A stretch of DNA of 64,000 nucleotides from a virus (Duplodnaviria; Caudoviricetes): IMG/VR virus record IMGVR_UViG_3300032301_000913, positions 1 through 64,000 of that record; one strand, given 5' to 3'. The notes beneath the pieces were generated by a model, which was not told the origin of the DNA, ran no database searches, and saw only the letters and a program-made list of their open reading frames with translations. How positions within the stretch are numbered: the first letter of the stretch is position 1; each line of letters begins with the position of its first letter. Below are positions 4,961 to 15,506 of the stretch, piece after piece. Both the position numbers and the translations under genes were made by a program.

Positions 4961-5533
4961 ATGACTGATTATAAAAAATACTCACTTGGTCAAGTTGAAA
5001 ACTTTCTGCATGATGCTATGAGTACAGAAGCAACACCACAAGAAATCTATGATGTGATTAAAGGTGTTGTTGAGGACAACTATTATACCTATAAACAGCA
5101 GACAGCAAATGCATATGAACTTCTTGCATTACTGAATGGTAATGGTAAGGGACATATCAAGGATTATGATGATACTGAATTGATGCCTTATCTTCAATGT
5201 GATGGTAATGATACATCAAAAGAAACTTTGAGTGGTTCAATTTCCCGAAAACATCAATTTCTTGATGAAATTGATGATTGTATGCGTCCTTGGGGTCATA
5301 GTGATATGGAAGCACTTAGATATACTGAAGAGGAAATGGATGAAATGTGTGCTGATGCCAAAGCAAAAGATAAGGTAAAGAAGTGGGTTCTTCCTGTTGA
5401 TAATGATGGTGTTGTTTTGTTTCCTGAAGATCTTCTAGAGCAAACTGGATGGAAGGAAGGAGATACTCTTCAGTGGATTCCCCAAGATGATGATAGTTTT
5501 ATTATGAAAAAAGTTATAAATAAAGATACCTGA
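4961..5533 (+). CDS. hypothetical protein with C-terminal AbrB/MazE-like domain
   Basis: C-terminus LPVDNDGVVLFPEDLLEQTGWKEGDTLQWIPQDDDSFIMKKV fits the SpoVT-AbrB pattern. Confidence 0.6.
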   Translation: MTDYKKYSLGQVENFLHDAMSTEATPQEIYDVIKGVVEDNYYTYKQQTANAYELLALLNGNGKGHIKDYDDTELMPYLQCDGNDTSKETLSGSISRKHQFLDEIDDCMRPWGHSDMEALRYTEEEMDEMCADAKAKDKVKKWVLPVDNDGVVLFPEDLLEQTGWKEGDTLQWIPQDDDSFIMKKVINKDT

Positions 5534-5618
5534 CTTGTTAGCACTTATCGGGTAGAAATGGTGTCTTCGGGCACCTTTTCTTGTATAAATAGTATTGCTA
5601 ACAAGTTAGAGTAGAACT
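5533..5618 (+). promoter_or_regulatory. terminator + T4 late promoter inside an RNA inverted repeat (HEG1 leader)
   Basis: acttgttagca 5533-5543 / tgctaacaagt 5596-5606; hairpin ggtgtc-ttcg-ggcacc-tttt 5560-5579; TATAAATA 5584-5591. Confidence 0.8.
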
Positions 5619-6491
5619 ATGGAACTCGCAGAGTATCACTATACCTATTATTCATATGAGGAATATAATAGAGGATATATTGGTAGTAGAACTTGTAAAT
5701 GCCTACCAGAAGAAGATATAAAATATTTTGGTTCTTATGTAGATAAAACATTTAAACCAACTCAAAAGATAATCTTAAAGGATGATTATGCTACAAGAGA
5801 AGAAGCATATGCTGATGAGATTATTTTACACGACTACTATGATGTAGCAAATAATCCTCATTTTGCTAATAAAGCAAAACAAACATCTACAAAGTTTTCT
5901 TTCAGTTCAAGTGAACAATCTAGAAAACTTGGAAAAAAAATGTTTGAAGAAAAAAGAGGTTGTTTCTCTTTAACTCCAGAACAGAAAAGTGAATTAGGTA
6001 GAGAAATTGGTTTAAGACATAAAGTAAATAAAACTGGATTTTGTGGAATGTCTTCAGAAAAAAGAAGTGAACTTGGCAAAAAAAATTCCAAAAGAAATGA
6101 AGAAAATAAAGTAGGAATATTTAAAATGACAAATGAAGAACTTTCTATATGTGGATCTAAAGGAGGTTCAAAAACATTTGAATTAAAAAAAGGTGCATTT
6201 TCTTTATCCAAAGAAGAAAGACTAGAAATTGCAAAAAAATCTGGAACTAAAGTTAAAGAACTTCGTTTGGGAATATTTGCAATGACTGAAGATGAAAAAA
6301 TAAAAATTGCAAAAAAGGGATATAAAAATGGTTTAGGAAAAATGAGTAAAGAGAAAAGAAGTGAAATTGCAACAAAAGTTAATTCGCAAAAATGGAAATG
6401 TTTAATAACAGGACATATATCAAATGCGAGAGGATTATCTAGGTTTCAAAATAAAAAAGGTATTGACAAATCATTTAGAGAACTGGTATAA
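5619..6491 (+). CDS. free-standing GIY-YIG (Seg-like) homing endonuclease-like protein with C-terminal ~25-aa repeats
   Basis: YHYTYYSYEEYNRGYIGSR...YFGS...NPHFANK; repeats GxFxMSxExRSELGKK. Confidence 0.75.
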   Translation: MELAEYHYTYYSYEEYNRGYIGSRTCKCLPEEDIKYFGSYVDKTFKPTQKIILKDDYATREEAYADEIILHDYYDVANNPHFANKAKQTSTKFSFSSSEQSRKLGKKMFEEKRGCFSLTPEQKSELGREIGLRHKVNKTGFCGMSSEKRSELGKKNSKRNEENKVGIFKMTNEELSICGSKGGSKTFELKKGAFSLSKEERLEIAKKSGTKVKELRLGIFAMTEDEKIKIAKKGYKNGLGKMSKEKRSEIATKVNSQKWKCLITGHISNARGLSRFQNKKGIDKSFRELV

Positions 6492-6492
6492 T
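6463..6492 (+). promoter_or_regulatory. sigma70-type early promoter
   Basis: TTGACA (6463-6468), 18 bp, TATAAT (6487-6492). Confidence 0.75.
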
Positions 6493-6510
6493 ATTAAAAG
6501 TTGATGGCAA

Positions 6511-6717
6511 TTGATGGCATTATCCGAAACTGTGGAAAGAAACCTAAAAGAAGCAGAATCTCATTTGAGAAATGCACTTGCATTTGCAGCTCGTCAAGAA
6601 TCTCCTTATGTATCTTGTGCAATCTCTAATATGATTGCCCAGATTGATAGTATTATTAAGACTGACAAACTATTTGATAATATTGATAGTATGATTGAGA
6701 AAAAAAATGGAAAATGA
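6511..6717 (+). CDS. hypothetical phage protein
   Basis: ORF track; downstream of promoter. Confidence 0.7.
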   Translation: MMALSETVERNLKEAESHLRNALAFAARQESPYVSCAISNMIAQIDSIIKTDKLFDNIDSMIEKKNGK

Positions 6718-7120
6718 AATGAACACTGGAGAACTGATTGACTCCCCTAAGTTTCAAGAGGAACTATCAAAACAAAATACTTTACGTGAAACATTGAACT
6801 CACCAGAAATGGTAAAAATGCGAGAAGACCTTGCAGATGCTCATAAGAAAAGTATTGAGGCATCTGTTGGGTGGTATTATATGCTTTCTGCCGAGGATAA
6901 GTATAAGGCAGTAGAAGCACTTTGCCATATTATATGTAAGGCAGAGCGTGAAGGAACTTCTCATAGAGGATTAATGAGTGTGCTTGGTGTTTATCCAGAA
7001 GCCTTTTTTATCGATGGACTTATGGATATTCACAATTCTTTATACACAGAGTATCAAGATAGGGAATCAAAAGAATGGAAACAAGATGTAGAAAACCTTA
7101 AGAATTCTTCATTATTATAG
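6695..7120 (+). CDS. hypothetical phage protein
   Basis: ORF track. Confidence 0.7.
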   Translation: MRKKMENEMNTGELIDSPKFQEELSKQNTLRETLNSPEMVKMREDLADAHKKSIEASVGWYYMLSAEDKYKAVEALCHIICKAEREGTSHRGLMSVLGVYPEAFFIDGLMDIHNSLYTEYQDRESKEWKQDVENLKNSSLL

Positions 7121-7133
7121 ATATTGTGTTAGA

Positions 7134-7346
7134 ATGCTAACACATCATCAAGGAATTATGACACTCACAAAAACAGGAACTTCACAACTTACTTCAGAAG
7201 AATGGAAGGAATTAAACTCTCTGAGAGAAGCAATTAATCTGAATCCGAGTCAGGTTCATCCGGATAAGATGGAAAAGTTTACCGAACTGTTTGTGCGTAG
7301 TCTTGAAGGAAAAGGTGACTGGGATTATGGTGTAAAATCTAAATAA
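7134..7346 (+). CDS. hypothetical phage protein
   Basis: ORF track. Confidence 0.65.
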   Translation: MLTHHQGIMTLTKTGTSQLTSEEWKELNSLREAINLNPSQVHPDKMEKFTELFVRSLEGKGDWDYGVKSK

Positions 7347-7367
7347 TTCGAATTCAATTAAACCAAA

Positions 7368-7529
7368 ATGTCTGAACATAATACTGCTTTTGATTTGCCA
7401 TTAGAACTACCCGATTCTCAAGATCCCATAATTGCAAATCGTGCAAGTCGCCATCGTCCAGGTACGGCATTTGAAGATTTTTGCTCACTGAATCCTGATT
7501 CTGAGGAATGTAGAGTTTTTGATTGCTAA
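7368..7529 (+). CDS. cp12: CP12-like peptide, C-terminal motif only (53 aa; below ORF-track cutoff)
   Basis: MSEHNTAFDLPLELPDSQDPIIANRASRHRPGTAFEDFCSLNPDSEECRVFDC; CxxxPxxxxC motif; TAAATA at 7340-7345. Confidence 0.72.
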   Translation: MSEHNTAFDLPLELPDSQDPIIANRASRHRPGTAFEDFCSLNPDSEECRVFDC

Positions 7530-7791
7530 TGCGGGAAACTGATAAAGATTATCCTTCGGGATATGTGGCGGAGTGACACCGACCTTCCCGCTTTATTTTA
7601 TATCTTTATGCAAAATTATTACTTTTCTTTCCTGGTGGTTTGTTGCATCAATCGGTGCAACAAGTATTAATTATGTTCTGATGCATTACACTGATTATGA
7701 CAACGACTGACAAACTGATCTTCATTTCATCTTTTATTTGGTTTCTTCATTGGGGAACACGATTGATACAAGTGATACTAAATAACATTAC

Positions 7792-7875
7792 CTGATTTGA
7801 CCGCAATCTGTCAGGAGGAGGGTGGAATTCCCTCCTTTGTCTTATAAATATATGTGCGGTCAAATTAGAATAGAA
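7792..7875 (+). promoter_or_regulatory. terminator + late promoter inside an RNA inverted repeat (HEG2 leader)
   Basis: ctgatttgaccgca 7792-7805 / tgcggtcaaattag 7855-7868; ggaggg...ccctcc-ttt hairpin; TATAAATA 7843-7850. Confidence 0.8.
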
Positions 7876-8550
7876 ATGAATTACTACACTTACGCATATT
7901 TGCGTGAAGACAGAACACCTTATTACATAGGAAAAGGAAAAGGTAATAGGGCACACAGAAGAAGTAAAAGAGATATTAAACCTCCAAAAGATAAATCAAG
8001 AATAATCTTTCTCAAACAAAATTTAACTGAAAAAGAAGCATTTAGGCACGAGGTCTATATGATTTCCGTGTTAGGTAGAAAAGATTTAGGAACTGGTATT
8101 CTTCGTAATAAAACTAATGGTGGAGAAGGAACATTAGGAATAGTAGTAACACCAGAGTTTAGACAAAAAATGTCTGAATTGACAAAAGGTAGAAAGCATA
8201 CACAGGAAGCAAAAGAAAAAGTAAGTAAAGCAAATAAAGGAAAATCGCCGTGGAATAAAGGCAAATCCCTCCCAGAAGAAGTTAAGCAAAAAATAAGTCA
8301 ATCAAACAAAAATAAACAAATTTCTCCAGAAACAAGAGAAAAACTGAAATTGTCTTCCAAAGGTGAAAACAATAGTTTCTATGGTAAAAAACATACCAAT
8401 GAAACAAAAAGGAAAATGAGTCAAAATCATGCTGATGTAAGTGGTGAAAATAATCCTATGATGGGAGTCAAGCACTCACCAGAAGCAAAGGAAAAAATGC
8501 GTCAAGCATGGTTAAAGAGAAAAGAAATGAAAAGAAAACCACTTCAATAA
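7876..8550 (+). CDS. GIY-YIG-type homing endonuclease-like protein with NUMOD3-like repeats
   Basis: YYTYAYLREDRTPYYIGKG...NKTNGGEG; HT/HSxExKxKMS repeats; ATG at 7876 follows the late promoter. Confidence 0.85.
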   Translation: MNYYTYAYLREDRTPYYIGKGKGNRAHRRSKRDIKPPKDKSRIIFLKQNLTEKEAFRHEVYMISVLGRKDLGTGILRNKTNGGEGTLGIVVTPEFRQKMSELTKGRKHTQEAKEKVSKANKGKSPWNKGKSLPEEVKQKISQSNKNKQISPETREKLKLSSKGENNSFYGKKHTNETKRKMSQNHADVSGENNPMMGVKHSPEAKEKMRQAWLKRKEMKRKPLQ

Positions 8551-8593
8551 CTGGCACACCATAGCGTTGAGAACAAAATATTGTGTGTATAAT
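8536..8593 (+). promoter_or_regulatory. palindrome-type early promoter element
   Basis: aaaccact-tcaata-actggcac (8536-8557), 30 bp, TATAAT (8588-8593). Confidence 0.75.
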
Positions 8594-8597
8594 ATGA

Positions 8598-9071
8598 ATG
8601 TGGTTATTGAATCCTATGAGCGCCATTTATTACAGTGGATATGGTTATCACAAACGGATCTGTGGGGATGTTGCCTCTTGGTTTCTGAATAAGTTTCTAC
8701 CCCGCCATAAAATATATGTTGAAATAGTTCATCGAGGTCTCAAACGTGAATGTGTGTATGGTTACTGTAATTATACTGGAGAATCCTATCGGCCTCGTGA
8801 GTTTCTGATTGAATTGGATACTCATATGAATCGGGAGTTGTACATTAAGACTCTGCTACATGAACTGGTTCATTTGCGCCAATGGGTAACTGGTACACTT
8901 CGCACAAAACGTGGTAAGAGGTATTATAACTCCATTAATGTGGAGGACATTGAATACTGGGATCAACCACATGAGGTAATTGCCAGAAGAGAAGAAATAT
9001 TGTTATATCAAGAATACATGAAATCAAAAAAACCTACTTCAAGATGTTTTGTTAATAGACTTTGTGAATAG
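8598..9071 (+). CDS. putative zinc metallopeptidase (HExxH, SprT/ImmA-like)
   Basis: TLLHELVHLRQW followed by PHEVIARRE. Confidence 0.75.
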   Translation: MWLLNPMSAIYYSGYGYHKRICGDVASWFLNKFLPRHKIYVEIVHRGLKRECVYGYCNYTGESYRPREFLIELDTHMNRELYIKTLLHELVHLRQWVTGTLRTKRGKRYYNSINVEDIEYWDQPHEVIARREEILLYQEYMKSKKPTSRCFVNRLCE

Positions 9072-9089
9072 TATTAAATGGGCAGCAAC

Positions 9090-9167
9090 TTGTGTCAGGG
9101 GTGATAAAAGTTGTGTAAGTCCCATTTTTATACCATAAATATTAATAAGTCATTACCCCTGACACAA
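9090..9167 (+). promoter_or_regulatory. late promoter inside an RNA inverted repeat (HEG3 leader)
   Basis: ttgtgtcaggggtgat 9090-9105 / attacccctgacacaa 9152-9167; CATAAATA 9134-9141. Confidence 0.75.
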
Positions 9168-9817
9168 TGGAAAAATATTACACTTACGCATATTTGCGTG
9201 AAGATAGAACACCTTATTACATAGGTAAAGGGTGTGGGAACAGGATTAATGAAAATAAAGGAAGACCTTGTAAAAAACCAAAAGATAAATCAAGAACTAT
9301 TTTTCTAAAACAAAACTTAACCGAAGAAGAAGCATTTAAGCACGAAATCTATATGATTGCTGTTTTTGGTAGAAAGGATTTGGGAACAGGTATTCTTCAT
9401 AATAAAACTAATGGTGGTGATGGTGCTTCTGGGATGATCCATTTACCAGAATCAAAACTTAAAATGGGAACATCAAAAAACACAAAATATTGGAATAATG
9501 GTCTAAAAACTGTTAGAAAAATTGATTGTCCTGATGAAGGTTGGGTTGAAGGTAGATTGAATATGAATTATGATAATTGTAGAAAAGGATTATATTGGTG
9601 GAATAATGGAGTAAAATTAAAAGTTTCTAAAGATTGTCCTGGTGAGGGATGGAATAGGGGAATTGGAAAACTAATTAATAGAAAAGGTGTTGGTAAAAAA
9701 TATAACGAAAATGGATTTTCAACAAAGGGATTATATTGGTGGAATAATGGGATAAAAAACACTATGAAAAAAGAATACCCTGGAGAAGGATGGGTAAGAG
9801 GTAAAATTAAAATCTAA
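9167..9817 (+). CDS. GIY-YIG-type homing endonuclease-like protein with 3x WNNG...PGEGW repeats
   Basis: N-terminal domain nearly identical to 7876..8550; different C-terminal repeats. Confidence 0.82.
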   Translation: MEKYYTYAYLREDRTPYYIGKGCGNRINENKGRPCKKPKDKSRTIFLKQNLTEEEAFKHEIYMIAVFGRKDLGTGILHNKTNGGDGASGMIHLPESKLKMGTSKNTKYWNNGLKTVRKIDCPDEGWVEGRLNMNYDNCRKGLYWWNNGVKLKVSKDCPGEGWNRGIGKLINRKGVGKKYNENGFSTKGLYWWNNGIKNTMKKEYPGEGWVRGKIKI

Positions 9818-9878
9818 AGTAGAGGCACGCGAACAAGAATCTAAACTATACCTCAAGTATTTGAGTGAAAGGACTCCT

Positions 9879-9935
9879 GTGCCAGTTCGTCAAGTGCTCT
9901 ACTACTTCCCAACCCCCTGCTTAAAGTGGTATAAT
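9879..9935 (+). promoter_or_regulatory. palindrome-type early promoter element (palindrome inverted relative to copy at 632)
   Basis: gtgccagt-tcgtca-agtgctct (9879-9900), 29 bp, TATAAT (9930-9935). Confidence 0.7.
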
Positions 9936-9962
9936 TGGGAAGTAATCAAGGTAAAGTTCTCA

Positions 9963-10211
9963 ATGAAACTGCAATCCACGACTGGTACTATGATTATTGA
10001 TTATCACCCAGTCATGTTTGATGACAATACTCCTTTGGAGGATTGGTTTCTCAAAATCGTATCTATGGAAGGTAGTGATGCAATGTCCAAGAAGTTTATT
10101 CGCAAGAATGACATGTTTGATGAGATCAATGAACGTGTGAACATAGGTTATGAAGTTATTGACTTTAATACCGATTATCAAGTAGGAAATCCCATTACTG
10201 GAGCTTGTTAA
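9963..10211 (+). CDS. hypothetical phage protein
   Basis: ORF track (9861..10211); likely ATG at 9963. Confidence 0.65.
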   Translation: MKLQSTTGTMIIDYHPVMFDDNTPLEDWFLKIVSMEGSDAMSKKFIRKNDMFDEINERVNIGYEVIDFNTDYQVGNPITGAC

Positions 10212-10212
10212 A

Positions 10213-10416
10213 ATGACTGAAGATTTTGTAAAACTGAATGTTCATGAGATTGGTATTATTCTATCTTCACTCGAATTATTGAGTGTGAGTGAAGAGAAAG
10301 TAATTGCCAAAGATTATGGAAGTGCTCCTGCACTTTATGATAAGTTGTATTCGATTTATTCTAAAATGGATACATCAAATACCAGATTAATATACGATTT
10401 CACACCTTCATTTTGA
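10213..10416 (+). CDS. hypothetical phage protein
   Basis: ORF track. Confidence 0.7.
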   Translation: MTEDFVKLNVHEIGIILSSLELLSVSEEKVIAKDYGSAPALYDKLYSIYSKMDTSNTRLIYDFTPSF

Positions 10417-10419
10417 ATC

Positions 10420-10632
10420 ATGGAATCTAAAGCAAGAATTCTTTCTAGCATTACAGTTCTCTTTGCCTTTTACATAACATTGTATCATGACGGTATGGTA
10501 GGTGCAAGATTGTATATGCTGGGAAATCTTCTGGCACTTCCGTATATGATTCGAAACAAATGTTGGGATGTGGTTGTTTTACTTACATTTTTAATTATAA
10601 TGGGACTACCAAAAGTTATTGGAGTACACTAA
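10420..10632 (+). CDS. small integral membrane protein
   Basis: Two to three hydrophobic segments. Confidence 0.65.
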   Translation: MESKARILSSITVLFAFYITLYHDGMVGARLYMLGNLLALPYMIRNKCWDVVVLLTFLIIMGLPKVIGVH

Positions 10633-10835
10633 TGAATAACGAAGACATTAAATCATTCATGGAAGCATTTGATGATTTTATGAAACACTTTGAAGTGGAA
10701 GAACTTTACTACGAAGGTTGTATGGTTCATGAAAAACATCGTTCCGAAGCAAGAAGGATTCAGGAAGAAGAGATTGAATCAAAAGCGGCGGCACTGCAAA
10801 TAACCTGTGATTATTATATGGCAGAATTCTTGTGA
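10632..10835 (+). CDS. hypothetical acidic protein
   Basis: ORF track; TAATG-coupled start. Confidence 0.65.
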   Translation: MNNEDIKSFMEAFDDFMKHFEVEELYYEGCMVHEKHRSEARRIQEEEIESKAAALQITCDYYMAEFL

Positions 10836-11015
10836 ATACAAAAACCAAACTTCTTCTTACACTTTCTCAAGTAGAAGATATTATTAAACTCGTCGAAGGT
10901 AATGAGTACGAGGACTATTTTACTTCACATCTCATTCCAATTCAAGTTGAACTGAATCGACAGTTGACAAATCTATCACATTATACTAAAATCAAGGAGT
11001 AATTTAACACAAGAA

Positions 11016-11246
11016 ATGAAATCACTTTACATTGTTGACTACTGGGTTCCTTTTCCATCTTCCGAGTATGGTGGAGTTGTGAGTCTAATTGCCGATTCAG
11101 ATGCCGAAGCATTTATCATCTTATCAGAAGAAGAGCAGTTTGATGATAGGTATGTGAATCTAATCATGCCAAATGTGGTCAATGCTCAGAAGTTTAAATT
11201 GCAAGATGATTATGAGTCTGGTATTATTGATTCCTTTACCACATGA
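11016..11246 (+). CDS. hypothetical phage protein
   Basis: ORF track. Confidence 0.7.
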   Translation: MKSLYIVDYWVPFPSSEYGGVVSLIADSDAEAFIILSEEEQFDDRYVNLIMPNVVNAQKFKLQDDYESGIIDSFTT

Positions 11247-11524
11247 TTCCAGAGTTTCCCCATAAAGCACCTAAAGGTTATTCTTACGAATTTGAGCAAT
11301 TTAATGTGAGCACTATTCGCATTATGCTCCGTTGTCACAAAAAATTCGATTATAATCTTGGTGCTCCTACCTCAACTGCATGGGGATTCTACAAACCAAA
11401 GAAACGAGTCTACTATGCACCAATCAATTCAAAAACGATTGGTGCTGAAGTAAATATAGAGGACACTCGCAATTATAGTGCGATGCAAATCAAATTCACA
11501 CCATTGGAGCAATTCTTTGTATGA
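11243..11524 (+). CDS. hypothetical phage protein
   Basis: ORF track; ATGA coupling. Confidence 0.7.
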   Translation: MIPEFPHKAPKGYSYEFEQFNVSTIRIMLRCHKKFDYNLGAPTSTAWGFYKPKKRVYYAPINSKTIGAEVNIEDTRNYSAMQIKFTPLEQFFV

Positions 11525-11706
11525 ATACATTTTATAGTGGTTTAAACGTTCGGTACAAAGAATATGTTGGTAAAATTTACTTTGTATCCGAACACTACAT
11601 TACTATTTGTATACAAACATTTGAAGATAGGTTGCGGGATGTTTGCTTTCTAGTTTATCCTCATCAATGGAAAGATATTAAACTCCTAAAAGAGTCTGAA
11701 AAGTGA
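11521..11706 (+). CDS. hypothetical phage protein
   Basis: ORF track; ATGA coupling. Confidence 0.65.
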   Translation: MNTFYSGLNVRYKEYVGKIYFVSEHYITICIQTFEDRLRDVCFLVYPHQWKDIKLLKESEK

Positions 11707-11969
11707 AATCCAAGACCGCATGGAGATGGTTTGCCCTAGCACTTGGTGAGAAGGCATCCAAATGTGACAAAGAATCTGATATTGTAGCAAGGATTCGTGC
11801 TGGCATTTTTCTCACATATCTAATCACAAACTGTTTCATAGTGGCAGGAGTAATTAAACATTGGAACGATAATCAACCTATTGAGATTTACATTGACAAT
11901 GAAGTACCAAGTAACCTATCTGAAACCAAAAAAGAAATCGTATTCAAGACAGGTGGTGACGTTCTATAA
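11703..11969 (+). CDS. small membrane protein
   Basis: GTGA coupling; TM segment GIFLTYLITNCFIVAGVI. Confidence 0.65.
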   Translation: MKSKTAWRWFALALGEKASKCDKESDIVARIRAGIFLTYLITNCFIVAGVIKHWNDNQPIEIYIDNEVPSNLSETKKEIVFKTGGDVL

Positions 11970-12033
11970 GATTGAAGATGCAGGATTCTGGGAGCAGATG
12001 GTAAAGAATCAGGGATGTAAAGACGTTGAGATT

Positions 12034-12092
12034 GTGCCAGTTCTTTAAGTGGCACACTGCCTACACCACATTTCAGATCCTACCTCTACAAT
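12034..12092 (+). promoter_or_regulatory. palindrome-type early promoter element
   Basis: gtgccagt-tcttta-agtggcac (12034-12055), 31 bp, TACAAT (12087-12092). Confidence 0.8.
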
Positions 12093-12137
12093 GGGGTCAA
12101 GCGGAACAAATCCGCACCATCGCTCGAAATTCAAATT

Positions 12138-12425
12138 ATGACTACCGCAACTCGTCATCCTTTTACTATCGCTCGCACCTTCACCAAAGAAGAATCGAGT
12201 GCCGTCAGCATGTTGGAACTGCTTCCTTCCACCGAAGGTAATGACTGCTATGATGTGCTGGTATCTTATCACAGTTCTGATAAGGTCTACCGTTATGAGG
12301 TAGACGACGATGCTACCGCACAACTGTGGTATAGCATCATGAACGATCCTGAAGTGTGCTCCCTGACCTCCTGGGGCACTCTGGTGAATCGTGCTCGTGC
12401 TCATGGCGACATCGTGGAGGCATAA
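12138..12425 (+). CDS. hypothetical protein, possibly KTSC-like
   Basis: ESSAVSMLE...VLVSYHSSDKVYRYEV...SWGTLVN resembles the KTSC pattern. Confidence 0.5.
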   Translation: MTTATRHPFTIARTFTKEESSAVSMLELLPSTEGNDCYDVLVSYHSSDKVYRYEVDDDATAQLWYSIMNDPEVCSLTSWGTLVNRARAHGDIVEA

Positions 12426-12482
12426 GACAGTCTAGGAACTGTCACAATAGGGACACTGAAGCGATTCGGTGTCCCTTATAAT
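12424..12482 (+). promoter_or_regulatory. palindrome-type early promoter element with stem-loop
   Basis: aagacagt-ctagga-actgtcac (12424-12445); gggacac...gtgtccc hairpin; TATAAT (12477-12482). Confidence 0.8.
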
Positions 12483-12820
12483 AAGCAAGTCATCATCACA
12501 CACACATTTCAAATGAAAACCACCTACATCTATCTTGGAGTCATTGCTATTCTAATGTGGAATGGTTTGGCAATTCGACGTGATAATGAACTGTGGAAGT
12601 CCTACAAACAAACTAAGGCACATCTGGAGTATTGTCAGGCATTTCCTACAAATTCCAGTTGTAAGCAATGAGATGTTCAACTTCATCTCTGGTACTATCT
12701 TTGGTATCATTGTTGCAACCATCGGATTCAATGGTGTTGCAACAGTACTGAACGGTATCATGTTTCAAATTCAGAAACAAACTCTTGAACTGACTCAACC
12801 CCAATTACCTCCCCCCACAA

Positions 12821-13051
12821 ATGACCAACGAAACCAGTTACTATGATACGACTCCTGTTACAATGGAGTTTACTGCTGATGAGCACGATCTGTTGAATAG
12901 TATTCTCAATCATGCCATTGATGGAATGGATCTTGCGATTCCGTGCATTTATGACTTGCCGGAAGATTCTGAGATTCGGCAGCGTTATGATACGCTTGAG
13001 CACATGAAAAACCATTCTTACAAACTCTGGGCAAACCGATTTGGTAATTAA
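12821..13051 (+). CDS. hypothetical phage protein
   Basis: ORF track. Confidence 0.7.
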   Translation: MTNETSYYDTTPVTMEFTADEHDLLNSILNHAIDGMDLAIPCIYDLPEDSEIRQRYDTLEHMKNHSYKLWANRFGN

Positions 13052-13053
13052 TT

Positions 13054-13320
13054 ATGAAATTCTCTGATCTTAACTTTGAACCACATCCAAACTGGGATGG
13101 TGTTCAAGCAAGACACTTCTTTGATAATGGTTATGGAGTATCTGTAATCAAATCTTCCAATTCTTATGGTGGTTCTGATGGTCTTTATGAGGCAGCAGTA
13201 CTGAAAGTAACTGATGAAGATTTGGAGATAACTTATGATACTCCAATCACCAGTGATGTTCTTGGACATCAAACTGTAGAAGATATTGATTCTCTTCTTT
13301 TTGAAATTGAAAAACTTTGA
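13054..13320 (+). CDS. hypothetical phage protein (paralog of 29972..30223)
   Basis: MKFSDLNF...FDNGYGVSVI...YEAAVL. Confidence 0.75.
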   Translation: MKFSDLNFEPHPNWDGVQARHFFDNGYGVSVIKSSNSYGGSDGLYEAAVLKVTDEDLEITYDTPITSDVLGHQTVEDIDSLLFEIEKL

Positions 13321-13328
13321 GGTAAATT

Positions 13329-13655
13329 ATGAGACCTTTTCTTACTATTTTCGGGGCTGTTGTTGGCATTGCTGGTGCTGGTGCCATTGGATGGGGACTC
13401 ACCTATCACGACCTTATCTTCACCTCATTCTTTGCACCGAAGTATGAAAATGTTCGTAGGAATACATTTGAGCAATCAAAGTCATTCCGAACTGGTGCTG
13501 TTCAAGAACTGCAAAATATGCAGTTTGAATACATCAAAGCATCCCCCGAACATAAGAAAGCACTTGCTGATATTATTCGGCATCGTGCTCTCGAAGTTCC
13601 TGCCGATGCAATGCCCACCGACCTTCAATCCTTTATCTCTAATCTTCCTAACTGA
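13329..13655 (+). CDS. membrane-anchored protein
   Basis: N-terminal TM segment. Confidence 0.75.
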   Translation: MRPFLTIFGAVVGIAGAGAIGWGLTYHDLIFTSFFAPKYENVRRNTFEQSKSFRTGAVQELQNMQFEYIKASPEHKKALADIIRHRALEVPADAMPTDLQSFISNLPN

Positions 13656-13657
13656 TT

Positions 13658-14155
13658 ATGAAAACTGCTATTGCTATTGCTTCCATTGCCGTTCTTGGTG
13701 TTGCTCTTGTTGGGTGTGATTATACTCCCAATTCTGATGAGGCACAACGAGTACAACAAGAACGAATTCTACAAGAAGGCACAGCACAAACTGGTATGCC
13801 TGCCATCAAGAACTTCCGTGAACGCAAACTCTTGAAGCAAATCATTGAGATGCGTGACCAAGATGGTCTTGTGACTTATACTTACACTGTTCCTGAAACT
13901 ACTGGTCGTCCAGTGTTTCTGTGTAACTCTATTGGTTATGGTCTTCCTGCTGCCACACAATATACTAATCCCAAAAAGATTAGTTATCATAATGATGCTG
14001 GATATGAGGTTCTTCCTCAGGCAGATCCTAATGGACTGTTCTCTCCTGATAGTGCAGAAGGTACTTGGGTGATGTGTTCTGAACCCAATGGTAGTGGTAA
14101 GACCCGTCCAGTGTATGTTGAACCTCGTGTTATTGTATCACCCTTCAAACTTTGA
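13658..14155 (+). CDS. putative lipoprotein
   Basis: Signal peptide II with lipobox ALVG-C. Confidence 0.8.
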   Translation: MKTAIAIASIAVLGVALVGCDYTPNSDEAQRVQQERILQEGTAQTGMPAIKNFRERKLLKQIIEMRDQDGLVTYTYTVPETTGRPVFLCNSIGYGLPAATQYTNPKKISYHNDAGYEVLPQADPNGLFSPDSAEGTWVMCSEPNGSGKTRPVYVEPRVIVSPFKL

Positions 14156-14577
14156 TTATGAAACCTGACAACACTCTTCGTAACGCTTCTATTATTGGCG
14201 TTTCTTTTATTCTCTCCCTGTTTATCATTAATGCAGTGGTTGGTCCTCTCTATAATGTGTGGGCACAATCTCTTGATGGTAAGGCAGAACTGCAAAAGGC
14301 AGAATTCACGAGGCAGGTAAAAGTTCTTGAGGCAAAGGCACTTAAAGATGCTTCTGTACTACAAGCAGAAGCGGAAGTTGAAAGGGCAAAAGGTGCTGCA
14401 TCTGCTAACAAAATTCTTGGAGAAAGTCTGAAAGGAAACTCAGAATATTTGCAATATCTTTACATTCAAAATCTTGAAAATTCAGATAATAGCAAGGAAA
14501 AAACTGTAATTTATGTTCCAACAGAAAGAGGTATTCCCATTCCTATTACGGAAAGTCAGCGCCTAAAACAAAACTAA
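14152..14577 (+). CDS. single-TM coiled-coil protein resembling the SPFH/band-7 C-terminal region
   Basis: TM then AEAEVERAKGAASANKILGESL...YLQYLYI...VIYVPTE. Confidence 0.65.
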   Translation: MIMKPDNTLRNASIIGVSFILSLFIINAVVGPLYNVWAQSLDGKAELQKAEFTRQVKVLEAKALKDASVLQAEAEVERAKGAASANKILGESLKGNSEYLQYLYIQNLENSDNSKEKTVIYVPTERGIPIPITESQRLKQN

Positions 14578-14587
14578 ATAATTATAC

Positions 14588-14667
14588 CTGAATGACGGCA
14601 ATCTTCAGGGGAGGGTGAAAGACCCTCCTTTTTAATATAAATAATAATGCCGTCATTTAGAGTAGAA
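14588..14667 (+). promoter_or_regulatory. terminator + late promoter inside an RNA inverted repeat (HEG4 leader)
   Basis: ctgaatgacggca 14588-14600 / tgccgtcatttag 14648-14660; ggagggt-gaaag-accctcc-tttt; TATAAATA 14636-14643. Confidence 0.8.
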
Positions 14668-15252
14668 ATGAAAGGACTCATTTATTGTGTCTATTGTATT
14701 CCAACAGGAAAGAAATACATAGGACAAACAACACAAATATTAGAAAAAAGAATAAACAGACACTTTTGCGATAGTGAAAAAACAGATTATCATTTTCATC
14801 GTGCTATAAAAAAATATGGTAAAGAAAACTTTATATTTGGTGTCGTTGAAGAATGTAATTTAGAAGAATTAAATTTAAAAGAAATATATTGGATTGATAA
14901 GTATAATACTTTTAGTAATGGATACAATAGTGATACTGGTGGGTTGAATGGTAGATTAATTAGTGAAGACACCAAAGAAAAAATAAGTAATTCTCTAAAA
15001 AATAGAACTTTTACCCCAGAACATCTTGAAAAAATAAAGAAGTCACTTACTGGCAAAACTCTTTCAGAAGAAACCAGAAATAAAATAAGTCAAAGTAAAA
15101 TAGGTAAATCCAGAGGTCCATTAAGTGAGGAACACAAAAAGAAAATTGGAGATGCTAATAGAGGCAAAAAACTTGGACCTTTAAGTGAAGAACATAAAAG
15201 AAAAGTTGGTGAAGCACTAAAAGGTAAAAAGTATAAGAAAAGAATTAAGTAA
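14668..15252 (+). CDS. GIY-YIG homing endonuclease-like protein with NUMOD3 repeats
   Basis: GLIYCVYCIPTGKKYIGQT...GYNSDTGG; LSEEHKxKI repeats; likely ATG 14668 (track 14647). Confidence 0.88.
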   Translation: MKGLIYCVYCIPTGKKYIGQTTQILEKRINRHFCDSEKTDYHFHRAIKKYGKENFIFGVVEECNLEELNLKEIYWIDKYNTFSNGYNSDTGGLNGRLISEDTKEKISNSLKNRTFTPEHLEKIKKSLTGKTLSEETRNKISQSKIGKSRGPLSEEHKKKIGDANRGKKLGPLSEEHKRKVGEALKGKKYKKRIK

Positions 15253-15253
15253 G

Positions 15254-15312
15254 GTGACACTCTGACAACTGGCACACGGGGGCATCCGGATTCGTCTGGA
15301 TGCCACTAGACT
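15254..15312 (+). promoter_or_regulatory. palindrome-type early promoter element with stem-loop
   Basis: gtgacact-ctgaca-actggcac (15254-15275); ggcatcc...ggatgcc hairpin; TAGACT (15307-15312). Confidence 0.8.
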
Positions 15313-15335
15313 AACAAAGTAATTCACCAACGATC

Positions 15336-15506
15336 ATGACTTCCAATTCCTACGTCGCTCAACTGATGGAGAAAGGTTACACCGAACAGGAGTGCCGGTC
15401 TGCCCGTGCTTCAAAGATGACCTTCCCTTGCACCATTGGATCACGCACCTTTCATACTGAAGAGGCATATCAAGAGGCACTGCACGACTTTCTGAACAGT
15501 ATCTGA
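15336..15506 (+). CDS. hypothetical protein (56 aa)
   Basis: Read manually: MTSNSYVAQLMEKGYTEQEC... Confidence 0.55.
   Translation: MTSNSYVAQLMEKGYTEQECRSARASKMTFPCTIGSRTFHTEEAYQEALHDFLNSI

What the first reader, a model, noticed from the sequence alone, without database searches (positions are those of the whole stretch)
5526..14670. Four homing-endonuclease-like genes share a covarying upstream RNA switch: antisense arm, terminator, late promoter, target arm
Seen: upstream of all four GIY-YIG-type ORFs, one arm (5533-43, 7792-7805, 9090-9105, 14588-14600) is complementary to the translation-start region (5596-5606, 7855-68, 9152-67, 14648-60), with a TATAAATA/CATAAATA late promoter between the arms. 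In three copies the frame is ACCTGA-N6/7-GCA...TC(A/G)GG, a GC hairpin plus T tract, the late promoter, then TGC-N6/7-TTAGA(G/A)TAGAA..ATG. The variable core differs per gene (cttgtta, tttgacc, atgacg) yet each matches its own partner, and the only mismatch is G:U-compatible, which points to RNA-level pairing. Established: T4 I-TevI/II/III, segB, e and soc are silenced by RBS-occluding hairpins on early transcripts, and late transcripts lack the 5' arm. Inference: because a terminator lies between the arms, early transcripts may end as a small hairpin RNA (CCTGA/TCAGG stem presenting a gene-specific seed) that binds the late nuclease mRNA in trans. That would be a modular, sequence-coded antitoxin/antisense switch.
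Basis: partly seen in the sequence, partly recalled or inferred. Interest (0 to 1): 0.9.

Follow-up and report, generated by a model that had tools for sequence, protein, structure and literature searches.

The report
Portable RNA lock on phage nucleases
Four selfish DNA-cutting genes in a lake cyanophage each carry a portable ~100-base control cassette that hides the gene's ribosome site until a late promoter bypasses it, a known T4-style trick, here in a widespread, strongly covarying form that may also make a tiny antisense RNA.

Summary
All four inverted repeats lie at the stated coordinates. Three copies (5515-5613, 7777-7872, 14573-14664) belong to one family, of which I collected 122 distinct variants from IMG/VR and phage S-SRM01. 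The fourth (9076-9167) belongs to a second family.

Covariation is strong. The long-range helix has 17 pairs, 15 with compensatory changes, and is 98.5% paired. As a control, 0 of 120 matches to the same pattern in bacterial genomes have complementary arms.

The best-supported mechanism is the known T4-type one: a terminator insulates the gene, read-through RNA has its ribosome site locked, and a consensus late promoter starts the mRNA exactly at the 3' arm. Dassa et al. 2009 already reported such hairpins in metagenomic endonuclease genes.

- An invariant second late-promoter-like box (P1) sits 5 nt before the 5' arm.
- A covarying 5' hairpin starts at P1's predicted start site.
- Together these predict a ~50-nt late RNA complementary to the first ~17 nt of the nuclease mRNA.

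Action in trans is plausible (~30%) but untested. The core is not hypervariable.

The scan noted this cassette before in another genome (e1-5377383, e1-5377394).

The parts
5515..5522 (+). Copy 1, P1: late-promoter-like box (TATAAATA). The predicted start is A5528.
   Evidence: The TAAATA box is invariant at this spacing in 122 unique family members.
5528..5543 (+). Copy 1, 5' arm: flank ACCUGA, then core, then GCA. The stop codon of the upstream ORF (5531-5533) lies inside it.
5548..5553 (+). Copy 1, local partner of the 5' flank. It closes the 5' hairpin with one U.G pair.
   Evidence: Fold of 5528-5582; family covariation.
5560..5582 (+). Copy 1, terminator-like hairpin with a UUCG loop (5560-5575) plus T tract (5576-5582).
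5584..5591 (+). Copy 1, P2: consensus late promoter TATAAATA. The predicted start is G5597.
5596..5613 (+). Copy 1, 3' arm covering the leader up to 5 nt before the ATG at 5619.
5619..6491 (+). Nuclease-like gene 1 (290 aa), family unassigned. A relative with the same N-terminal type carries NUMOD3. A perfect sigma-70 promoter overlaps its 3' end (6463-6492).
7777..7784 (+). Copy 2, P1 box (ACTAAATA). The predicted start is A7790.
7790..7805 (+). Copy 2, 5' arm.
7810..7815 (+). Copy 2, local partner closing the 5' hairpin.
7817..7842 (+). Copy 2, terminator-like hairpin (7817-7835) plus an interrupted T tract (7836-7842).
   Evidence: The consensus scan did not flag it.
7843..7850 (+). Copy 2, P2 TATAAATA. 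The predicted start is G7856.
7855..7872 (+). Copy 2, 3' arm.
7876..8550 (+). Homing-endonuclease gene 2 (224 aa): NUMOD3 x3, with a GIY-YIG-like N-domain below threshold.
9076..9129 (+). Copy 3 (second family), scaffold hairpin. The outer stem is 9076-9082 with 9121-9127, and the inner stem presents the 5' arm 9090-9105. A T run lies at 9125-9129. Only a degenerate P1-like box (9064-9070) lies upstream.
9134..9141 (+). Copy 3, late promoter CATAAATA (TATAAATA in S-SRM01). The predicted start is A9147.
9152..9167 (+). Copy 3, 3' arm, ending on the A of the ATG.
9167..9817 (+). Homing-endonuclease-like gene 3 (216 aa). Its N-domain is 59% identical to that of gene 2.
14573..14580 (+). Copy 4, P1 box (ACTAAATA). 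The predicted start is A14586. The stop codon of the upstream ORF (14575-14577) lies inside the box.
14586..14600 (+). Copy 4, 5' arm.
14604..14609 (+). Copy 4, local partner closing the 5' hairpin.
14610..14633 (+). Copy 4, terminator-like hairpin (14610-14628) plus T5 (14629-14633).
14636..14643 (+). Copy 4, P2 TATAAATA. The predicted start is G14649.
14648..14664 (+). Copy 4, 3' arm.
14668..15252 (+). GIY-YIG plus NUMOD3 homing endonuclease gene 4 (194 aa). The ORF list starts it at an in-frame ATG at 14647 inside the 3' arm. By family register the start is 14668.

Best explanation
Each nuclease gene carries a portable expression cassette of about 100 nt that restricts its translation to late infection.

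How it works in family 1 (copies at 5515, 7777 and 14573):
1. An intrinsic-terminator-like hairpin stops most transcription arriving from upstream.
2. Any RNA that reads through contains both arms. These form a 14-17 bp helix that buries the leader and the weak Shine-Dalgarno-like GAG up to 3-6 nt before the ATG.
3. A consensus T4-type late promoter (P2) lies between the terminator and the 3' arm. Its predicted start is the first or second base of the 3' arm, so late mRNA lacks the 5' arm and is predicted to be unstructured and translatable.

The copy at 9076 belongs to a second family that uses the same cis logic, with its helix reaching the ATG itself.

Family 1 has two further conserved parts: a second late-promoter-like box (P1) and a 5' hairpin that begins at P1's predicted start. 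Together they most likely specify a two-hairpin RNA of about 50 nt. Its 5' 16 nt are complementary to the first ~17 nt of the P2 mRNA.

Shown here: the sequence anatomy, the covariation of both helices and the conservation of both boxes.
Inferred: promoter activity, termination efficiency, timing, and any action of the small RNA in trans.
For: Anatomy and folds:
- The arms, boxes and hairpins are at verified coordinates.
- Full-length leaders fold into the long-range helix at -27 to -35 kcal/mol, z -2.9 to -6.0.
- Predicted P2 leaders are unstructured around the start, z +1.0 to -1.1 for family 1.

Covariation in family 1, on 62 distinct sequences:
- The long-range helix has 17 pairs, 15 with changes on both sides, and 98.5% of cells are paired.
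- 0 of 500 shuffles reach the observed values, and slid controls give 38-57% paired.
- A conserved G.U pair points to RNA of the + strand.

Covariation in family 2: RNAalifold finds the long-range helix on its own, with 6 of 12 pairs compensated among 9 sequences.

Negative control: 0 of 120 pattern matches in prokaryotic genomes have complementary arms, against 75 of 98 in viral contigs.

Promoters:
- P2 is TATAAATA in 109 of 117 unique elements, with a purine at the predicted start in 113 of 117.
- NATAAATA is the cyanomyovirus late promoter (PMC2984593), and CTAAATA is that of phage Aeh1 (PMC1524935).
- In this genome ATAAATA and CTAAATA are depleted on the antisense strand: 2 observed against 16.9 expected, and 2 against 9.3.

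Terminator: non-homologous hairpins replace each other at the same place, each followed by a T run, which is 4 or longer in 85 of 117 elements.

Precedent: I-TevI/II/III, segB and Aeh1 mobE work in this way (PMC2988022).

P1 and the small RNA:
- The TAAATA box is invariant in all 122 unique elements. It is present in 41 of 41 elements found by a pattern that did not require it.
- The sequence just upstream of the box is random, with entropy 1.8 bits.
- The predicted start is a purine in 113 of 117.
- The MFE fold of the predicted RNA begins pairing at nt 1 or 2 in 115 of 117, with at least 10 compensated variants of that hairpin.
Against: - There are no expression data. The only isolate found to carry the cassette is S-SRM01, and I found no transcript map for it.
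- The consensus terminator scan flagged only copy 1.
- T tracts are short (mostly 3-5), so termination efficiency is unknown.
- If termination were complete, the cis helix would be redundant.
- The P1 box also supplies the stop codon of the upstream gene in many contexts: 54 of 86 upstream ORFs end inside the cassette. Part of its conservation could therefore have another cause.
- Family 2 has neither a conserved P1 nor a conserved T tract, so the small-RNA layer is not general.
Confidence: 0.75

Rival explanations
1. The main function is in trans. P1 drives a late RNA of about 50 nt, made of a 5' hairpin that shows the core in its loop plus the terminator hairpin. This RNA pairs with the extreme 5' end of the cognate P2 mRNA and blocks or destabilises it, much as IS10 RNA-OUT acts on RNA-IN. 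Different cores would give each nuclease gene in a multi-copy genome its own address. This does not exclude the cis lock.
For: - P1 is invariant, with a purine at the predicted start and the hairpin flush with it.
- The local hairpin covaries, and cis occlusion alone does not require it.
- The helix ends within one nucleotide of both predicted start sites.
- In silico, cognate pairs gain -14 to -16.5 kcal/mol after unfolding costs, against -5.8 or weaker for non-cognate pairs.
- No contig, nor S-SRM01 with six copies, holds two copies with the same arm.
- Functional copies are almost always perfectly complementary: 38 of 41.
- Precedent for a small RNA made from a late promoter followed at once by a terminator: StxS (PMC7547250).
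Against: - No transcript evidence exists.
- The core is no more variable than unpaired spacers, at 1.04 against 0.9-1.4 bits, so there is no sign of diversifying selection.
- Distinct arms within genomes are not significant. My rough estimate, computed by no tool, is P about 0.04-0.15, using the core frequencies and the 38 within-genome pairs.
- The pair that involves the nucleotide just before the P2 start covaries, which fits the cis form.
- Orphan 5' modules without a nuclease gene are decayed.
- Family 2 has no P1.
Confidence: 0.3
2. P1 and the 5' hairpin are not a small-RNA gene. On this view the TAAATA(A) box and the TGA in the flank are kept because they close all three reading frames of whatever gene lies upstream, and mark the cassette junction. 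The 5' hairpin would help the terminator fold, or stabilise the 3' end of the upstream mRNA. Only the cis lock would regulate the nuclease.
For: - 54 of 86 upstream ORFs of 60 codons or more end on cassette-supplied stops: 32 in the box, 16 at its end and 6 at the TGA of the flank.
- This includes window copies 1 and 4.
- The hairpin abuts the terminator stem directly.
Against: - Any one cassette needs a stop in only one frame, yet all six box positions are invariant in 122 variants. That includes the 59 contexts where no upstream ORF uses a cassette stop.
- Some divergent copies lack the third-frame TGA but keep the box.
- The motif is selected against on the antisense strand of this genome, which implies that it is active wherever it occurs.
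Confidence: 0.3
3. The inverted repeats act at the DNA level, as recombination or cruciform sites that shuffle cassettes. This would resemble the PeSL promoter-terminator motifs of T4-type phages.
For: - The same core precedes many unrelated ORF types, and the same ORF type follows many cores. The cassette and the gene therefore recombine.
- PeSL precedent: PMC2839356, PMC4122927.
Against: - A conserved G.U pair and occasional U.G pairs would be C.A mismatches on the other strand.
- The pairing partner is always the translation-start region of the gene.
- Both helices respect predicted transcript boundaries.
- Shuffling can be a side effect of repeated conserved sequence.
Confidence: 0.08
4. 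The arm downstream of P2 is an operator bound by the nuclease itself, giving I-TevI-like autorepression, and the variable core reflects each enzyme's DNA specificity.
For: I-TevI represses its own late promoter through an operator that resembles its homing site (PMC2988022).
Against: - Core type and nuclease type are uncoupled. One core is found with nine different N-terminal types, and one nuclease type is found with up to five cores.
- The hypothesis does not explain the complementary upstream arm.
Confidence: 0.04

Closest known systems
RBS-sequestering hairpins with a nested late promoter in T-even phages (I-TevI, I-TevII, I-TevIII, segB, Aeh1 mobE; review PMC2988022)
   Same: The gene is a homing endonuclease in a T4-like phage. 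A stable helix hides the ribosome site on transcripts from upstream. A TATAAATA late promoter inside the structure gives a shorter, open mRNA.
   Different: - Here the element is one conserved, portable cassette family, with 122 variants on GIY-YIG, HNH, NUMOD3 and unassigned genes.
- It encloses a terminator-like hairpin.
- It has a second conserved late-promoter-like box in front of the 5' arm.
- It has an alternative, covarying 5' hairpin.
5'-UTR hairpins of metagenomic free-standing endonuclease genes in 'fractured genes' (Dassa et al. 2009, PMC2677866)
   Same: The hairpins lie upstream of the start codon in 15 of 16 endonuclease 5' UTRs, and ten contain TATAAATA. Two conserved motifs usually pair with each other. 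The loci come from marine and freshwater metagenomes.
   Different: That paper mentions no terminator, no second promoter, no alternative hairpin and no variable core. Its motif figures were not available to me, so identity with this family is likely but unverified.
IS10 RNA-OUT / RNA-IN antisense control
   Same: Under the trans reading, a short stem-loop RNA of a mobile element presents a loop that pairs with the extreme 5' end of the element's own nuclease or transposase mRNA and covers the translation start.
   Different: RNA-OUT is transcribed from the opposite strand of the same DNA. Here the antisense arm is a same-strand inverted repeat with its own promoter-like box, so complementarity must be kept by selection. 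No transcript has been shown.
PeSL promoter-terminator cassettes of T4-type phages (PMC2839356, PMC4122927)
   Same: Both are short conserved regulatory cassettes, repeated within a genome, that combine a promoter with a terminator stem-loop and are associated with modular shuffling of accessory genes.
   Different: PeSLs carry early promoters, are not tied to nuclease genes and have no arm that pairs with the ribosome site. The 2014 PeSL paper (PMC4122927) does not mention cyanophages.
StxS, a small RNA made by early termination of a phage late transcript (PMC7547250)
   Same: A phage late promoter is followed at once by a terminator and yields a short regulatory RNA.
   Different: StxS is a by-product of antitermination control in a lambdoid prophage and acts on host targets. 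There is no sequence or structural relation to this cassette.

Membership tests
T-even-type translational mask with nested late promoter | The regulated gene is a homing endonuclease (or late gene) of a T4-like phage. | tested here: met
   - Gene 4 is GIY-YIG (TIGR01453 98 bits) plus NUMOD3.
- Genes 2 and 3 match PHROG homing-endonuclease families.
- The window encodes T4-type baseplate wedge proteins.
- Part of the examined stretch (8627-9839) is 87% identical to Kyanoviridae phage S-SRM01.
- The nuclease family of gene 1 is unassigned.
T-even-type translational mask with nested late promoter | A stable RNA helix sequesters the ribosome binding site or start codon. | tested here: met
   Folds. 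Covariation in family 1 with 15 of 17 pairs compensated, and in family 2 with 6 of 12.
T-even-type translational mask with nested late promoter | The late promoter lies inside the structure, so that late transcripts lack the 5' arm. | tested here: met
   The TATAAATA or CATAAATA box ends 5 nt before the predicted start, at the first or second base of the 3' arm in family 1 and 5 nt upstream of that arm in copy 3. This is by sequence only.
T-even-type translational mask with nested late promoter | Translation is shown to be delayed to late infection. | not testable with these tools
   No transcript or protein data.
Intrinsic (rho-independent) terminator | A GC-rich hairpin is followed directly by a U tract. 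| tested here: met
   Copies 1, 2 and 4. In the family the T run is 4 or longer in 85 of 117 elements. The scan tool flagged only copy 1. In relatives of copy 3 the T run is not conserved.
Intrinsic (rho-independent) terminator | Transcripts end at the U tract. | not testable with these tools
   3'-end mapping is needed.
Trans-acting antisense small RNA (IS10 RNA-OUT-like) | It has its own promoter. | tested here: inconclusive
   The P1 box N(A/C)TAAATA is invariant, stands at late-promoter spacing and has a purine at the predicted start. Its activity has not been shown. The box also serves as an upstream stop codon.
Trans-acting antisense small RNA (IS10 RNA-OUT-like) | A discrete, stable short transcript exists. 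| not testable with these tools
   A two-hairpin RNA of 47-70 nt is predicted. No RNA data.
Trans-acting antisense small RNA (IS10 RNA-OUT-like) | The seed is exposed in a loop and complementary to the 5' end or translation start of the target mRNA. | tested here: met
   Predicted folds. Cofold energies for cognate against non-cognate pairs. The complementarity covaries.
Trans-acting antisense small RNA (IS10 RNA-OUT-like) | It is encoded antisense to its target on the opposite strand. | tested here: not met
   Both arms are on the + strand as an inverted repeat.
PeSL mobile regulatory cassette | An early (sigma-70-type) promoter is joined to a terminator stem-loop. | tested here: not met
   The boxes are late-type. 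No conserved -35 element exists, because the upstream sequence is random.
Any Rfam family | A match to a curated covariance model. | tested here: not met
   There is no relevant match at E up to 1 in 5000-15500.

The most novel reading that the evidence does not exclude
Each cassette may encode, from its own late promoter, a two-hairpin RNA of about 50 nt whose loop-presented, freely re-codable core addresses only the mRNA of the nuclease gene next to it. That would be a same-strand, selection-maintained counterpart of IS10 RNA-OUT. It would let several competing selfish nuclease genes in one phage genome each throttle themselves without cross-talk.
Probability: 0.3. Interest if true: 0.8.

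Novelty: new variant of a known kind. Interest (0 to 1): 0.55.

Why it matters
Free-standing homing endonucleases must be expressed just enough to spread without harming the phage they ride in. This cassette looks like a ready-made, transferable answer to that problem. It brings stop codons for the gene upstream, a terminator, a translational lock and a late promoter. In the window the nuclease genes also carry a sigma-70-like promoter at or after their 3' ends.

The cassette is abundant in freshwater viral metagenomes, is absent from Rfam and has unusually clean three-way covariation. It would therefore make a good new RNA family.

If the predicted P1 RNA exists and acts in trans, it would be a rare case of a lytic-phage small RNA with a known target. 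It would also be a natural scaffold-plus-seed design with orthogonal variants, and it can be tested directly with swapped and compensatory cores. If not, the finding remains a well-documented but ordinary extension of T4-type translational masking.

Tried and rejected
- Hypervariable core (my own early impression): rejected. Core entropy is 1.04 bits, against 0.9-1.4 bits for unpaired spacers and loops.
- Orthogonality within genomes: no two copies share an arm in 12 contig types or in S-SRM01. By my rough estimate from pool frequencies (computed by no tool), this is only marginal, P about 0.04-0.15, so I make no claim.
- Conserved orphan small-RNA genes: the 5' modules without a 3' arm (L110, L125, L161, L042:11221) have lost the T tract or P2 and look like remnants.
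- Operator hypothesis: rejected, because core and nuclease type are uncoupled.
- Rfam: no family.
- Isolate genomes: three BLAST queries found only S-SRM01.
- Prokaryotic genomes: 120 pattern hits, all chance.
- Nuclease fold of gene 1:
  - Pfam and NCBIfam found nothing relevant.
  - hhalign against a GIY-YIG alignment gave probability 0.1.
  - The AlphaFold model had pLDDT 42.6 and was not searched further.
- Supplement of Dassa et al. 2009, which shows their motifs: not held.
- The covariance model R1 did not detect window copy 3 at E up to 1. I treated that copy as a separate family and tested it through protein-anchored loci.

Full report
**What the window is.**
The window comes from an 83-kb contig of a T4-like cyanomyovirus.
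- It encodes T4-type baseplate wedge proteins.
- Part of the examined stretch (window 8627-9839) is 87% identical to Synechococcus phage S-SRM01, a freshwater member of the Kyanoviridae.
- Genes run almost entirely on the + strand.

**Observation.**
Copies 1, 2 and 4 share one frame, in this order:
1. a late-promoter-like box (P1);
2. 5 nt of spacer;
3. a 5' arm made of the flank ACCUGA, a 6-7 nt core and GCA;
4. a short linker;
5. a partner (UCRGG) that can pair with the flank;
6. a GC hairpin with a T tract;
7. TATAAATA (P2) and 5 nt of spacer;
8. a 3' arm (UGC, complementary core, UUAG-A-GUA);
9. 3-6 nt, then the ATG.

RNAfold places each full leader in the long-range helix, z -4.3 to -6.0; copy 3 gives -2.9. 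Only these three copies of the frame occur in the 83-kb contig.

**The genes.**
- Gene 4 (14668-15252) is a bona fide GIY-YIG plus NUMOD3 endonuclease.
- Genes 2 and 3 share a 59% identical N-domain that matches PHROG homing-endonuclease families, but reaches GIY-YIG models only below threshold.
- The nuclease family of gene 1 is unassigned. A relative with the same N-terminal type carries NUMOD3.

'Four GIY-YIG-type ORFs' is therefore only partly verified.

**Comparative evidence for the long-range helix.**
- A pattern that fixes only the flanks and leaves the core and its partner free found 98 sites in IMG/VR. Of these, 75 have a complementary partner (2 mismatches or fewer, nearly all perfect), with at least 13 different cores.
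- A second pattern anchored only on the 5' half raised the count to 22 canonical core types. It found a perfect 3' arm in 72 of 81 unique 5' modules.
- The same first pattern in 596 Gb of prokaryotic genomes gave 120 hits, none complementary. This is a clean negative control.
- A covariance model built from 41 unique elements recovered more divergent copies in the fetched loci and six full copies in S-SRM01. That makes 122 unique sequences.
- On 62 distinct rows the helix has 17 pairs, 15 with changes on both sides, and 98.5% of cells are paired. No shuffle out of 500 reaches the observed values, and slid controls give 38-57% paired.
- The helix extends, across one bulged A, into the GAGUA just upstream of the ATG. 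That part covaries too (A-U to G-C in 9 sequences).
- A conserved G.U pair, and occasional U.G pairs, would be C.A on the other strand. The constraint therefore acts on + strand RNA.

First, the box N(A/C)TAAATA (P1) is present in every one of the 122 variants, always 5 nt before the first base of the 5' arm.
- This includes the 41 elements found without requiring it.
- The sequence immediately upstream of the box is random, at 1.8 bits per column.
- NATAAATA is the late promoter of cyanomyoviruses (PMC2984593), and CTAAATA is that of phage Aeh1 (PMC1524935).
- In this genome both motifs are strongly depleted on the antisense strand: 2 against 16.9 expected, and 2 against 9.3. This suggests they are active wherever they stand.
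- The predicted start is a purine in 113 of 117 elements.

Second, the 5' flank has an alternative local partner.
- The predicted RNA from the P1 start to the T tract (47-70 nt, median 54) folds into a 5' hairpin plus the terminator hairpin.
- That fold begins pairing at nt 1 or 2 in 115 of 117 elements.
- Divergent copies change the flank and compensate in both partners, local and distal. I saw at least ten compensated local stems.
- The formal support for the local stem is weaker than for the long helix. In the model-fitted alignment only a few double changes are counted. Taking one representative per flank class, 16 of 19 have 5 or more contiguous pairs, against 44% of cross-pairings.

**Mechanism.**
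The cis reading matches the established T-even scheme for I-TevI/II/III, segB and Aeh1 mobE (PMC2988022).
- Transcripts from upstream are mostly stopped at the terminator.
- Those that read through are locked.
- P2 is the full consensus in 93% of elements. It starts the mRNA at the 3' arm, giving a short leader that is predicted to be unstructured.
- Non-homologous terminator hairpins replace each other at the same position, so the hairpin's function rather than its sequence is what is kept.
- T tracts are short, so some read-through is likely. That explains why the lock is maintained.

Dassa et al. 2009 reported hairpins with TATAAATA and two mutually complementary motifs in the 5' UTRs of metagenomic free-standing endonuclease genes (PMC2677866). 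The cis element is therefore not new in kind. Their text mentions no terminator.

**The trans hypothesis.**
With P1 it does: a late RNA of about 50 nt whose 5' 16 nt are complementary to the first ~17 nt of the P2 mRNA.
- In silico, cognate pairs gain -14 to -16.5 kcal/mol net, against -5.8 or weaker for non-cognate pairs.

Three tests that could have favoured the trans model did not do so clearly:
- The core is not more variable than unpaired spacers.
- Arms are always distinct within a genome, but this is only marginally unexpected.
- Orphan 5' modules are decayed.

The pair that involves the nucleotide just before the P2 start covaries. That fits the cis form, unless initiation is one base earlier than predicted.

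P1 also has a second possible role. In 54 of 86 distinct contexts the upstream ORF ends on a stop codon supplied by the cassette, as in window copies 1 and 4. This cannot explain invariance of all six box positions in every variant, but it weakens the inference.

I put an active P1 at about 0.6, a discrete small RNA at about 0.5 and regulation in trans at about 0.3.

**Copy 3.**
This copy belongs to a second family.
- It has a conserved scaffold hairpin carrying a variable 5' arm, then a late promoter, then a 3' arm that reaches the ATG.
- Eight relatives found through the nuclease protein carry several different, compensated arm pairs.
- RNAalifold recovers the long-range helix by itself, with 6 of 12 pairs compensated.
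- These relatives have no conserved P1 and no conserved T tract. The S-SRM01 orthologue is 96% identical to the window copy.
- Family 2 therefore looks like plain cis occlusion.

**Portability.**
- One core is found in front of nine different N-terminal types.
- One nuclease type follows up to five cores.
- The downstream genes include GIY-YIG, HNH and NUMOD3-only proteins.
- Of 64 distinct upstream regions of relatives of genes 2 and 3, 61 have a late-promoter box within 45 nt of the ATG, and 49 have a strong upstream complement to the leader.

The cassette is thus a module exchanged among selfish nuclease genes, comparable in spirit to PeSL cassettes (PMC2839356, PMC4122927) but late-type and coupled to translation.

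**Distribution and prior notes.**
- Among 50,697 isolate phage records only S-SRM01 was found to carry the cassette. It is common in IMG/VR contigs.
- It matches no Rfam family.
- Earlier notes of this scan describe the same cassette in another genome and reached the same 'variant of the T4 trick' verdict. One of them also mentions the upstream ATAAATA.

**Verdict.**
The trans-acting RNA is unproven and should be re-framed as a late RNA driven by P1. This is a new, widespread and unusually well-supported variant of a known regulatory kind, with one open and directly testable question.

Noticed in passing
window 6463-6492, about 8567-8595 and 9906-9935: Sigma-70-like promoters lie at or just after the 3' ends of the nuclease genes. 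The one overlapping the end of gene 1 is a perfect TTGACA-18-TATAAT with an extended -10 TG. They would restart early transcription of downstream phage genes after the cassette's terminator.
   Followed up: partly
window 5531-5533 and 14575-14577; IMG/VR loci L001-L163: The gene upstream of a cassette usually stops on a codon supplied by the cassette. Of 86 upstream ORFs, 32 end on the TAA in the P1 box, 16 on the TAA at its end and 6 on the TGA of the 5' flank. Together these three codons close all three frames in canonical copies.
   Followed up: yes
L285, L295, L319, L327, L341, L349, L350, L355 (about 290-406) and window 9076-9167: A second cassette family has a sequence-conserved scaffold (GGGCAGCAAC ... 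GUUGCGUAAGUCCC) around a variable 5' arm. Why the scaffold is conserved in sequence, and not only in structure, is unexplained. A protein binding site is possible.
   Followed up: partly
L099 3044-3745 (S-SRM01 gp297): The annotated start of this homing endonuclease lies inside the cassette's terminator region. By family register the real start is the ATG at L099 3099. In the same way, the window ORF list starts gene 4 at 14647, inside the 3' arm.
   Followed up: partly
whole contig (G000, 83 kb): The late-promoter cores ATAAATA and CTAAATA are depleted five- to eight-fold on the antisense strand but not on the sense strand. This is consistent with selection against antisense late transcription.
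   Followed up: yes
L110 14206, L125 (- strand), L161 1259, L042 11221-11318: These are cassette remnants. They keep P1, the 5' arm and the local hairpin, but have lost the T tract, P2 or the 3' arm, and no nuclease gene follows. They are probably scars of endonuclease loss.
   Followed up: partly
L041, L077, L033, L079 (upstream of the cassette): In L041 and L077 the cassette sits directly after what looks like the 3' end of a tRNA gene (a GGTTCGAATCC-type arm). L033 and L079 may be similar, but no such arm was seen there. This recalls T4 segB in the tRNA cluster. No tRNA scan was run.
   Followed up: no
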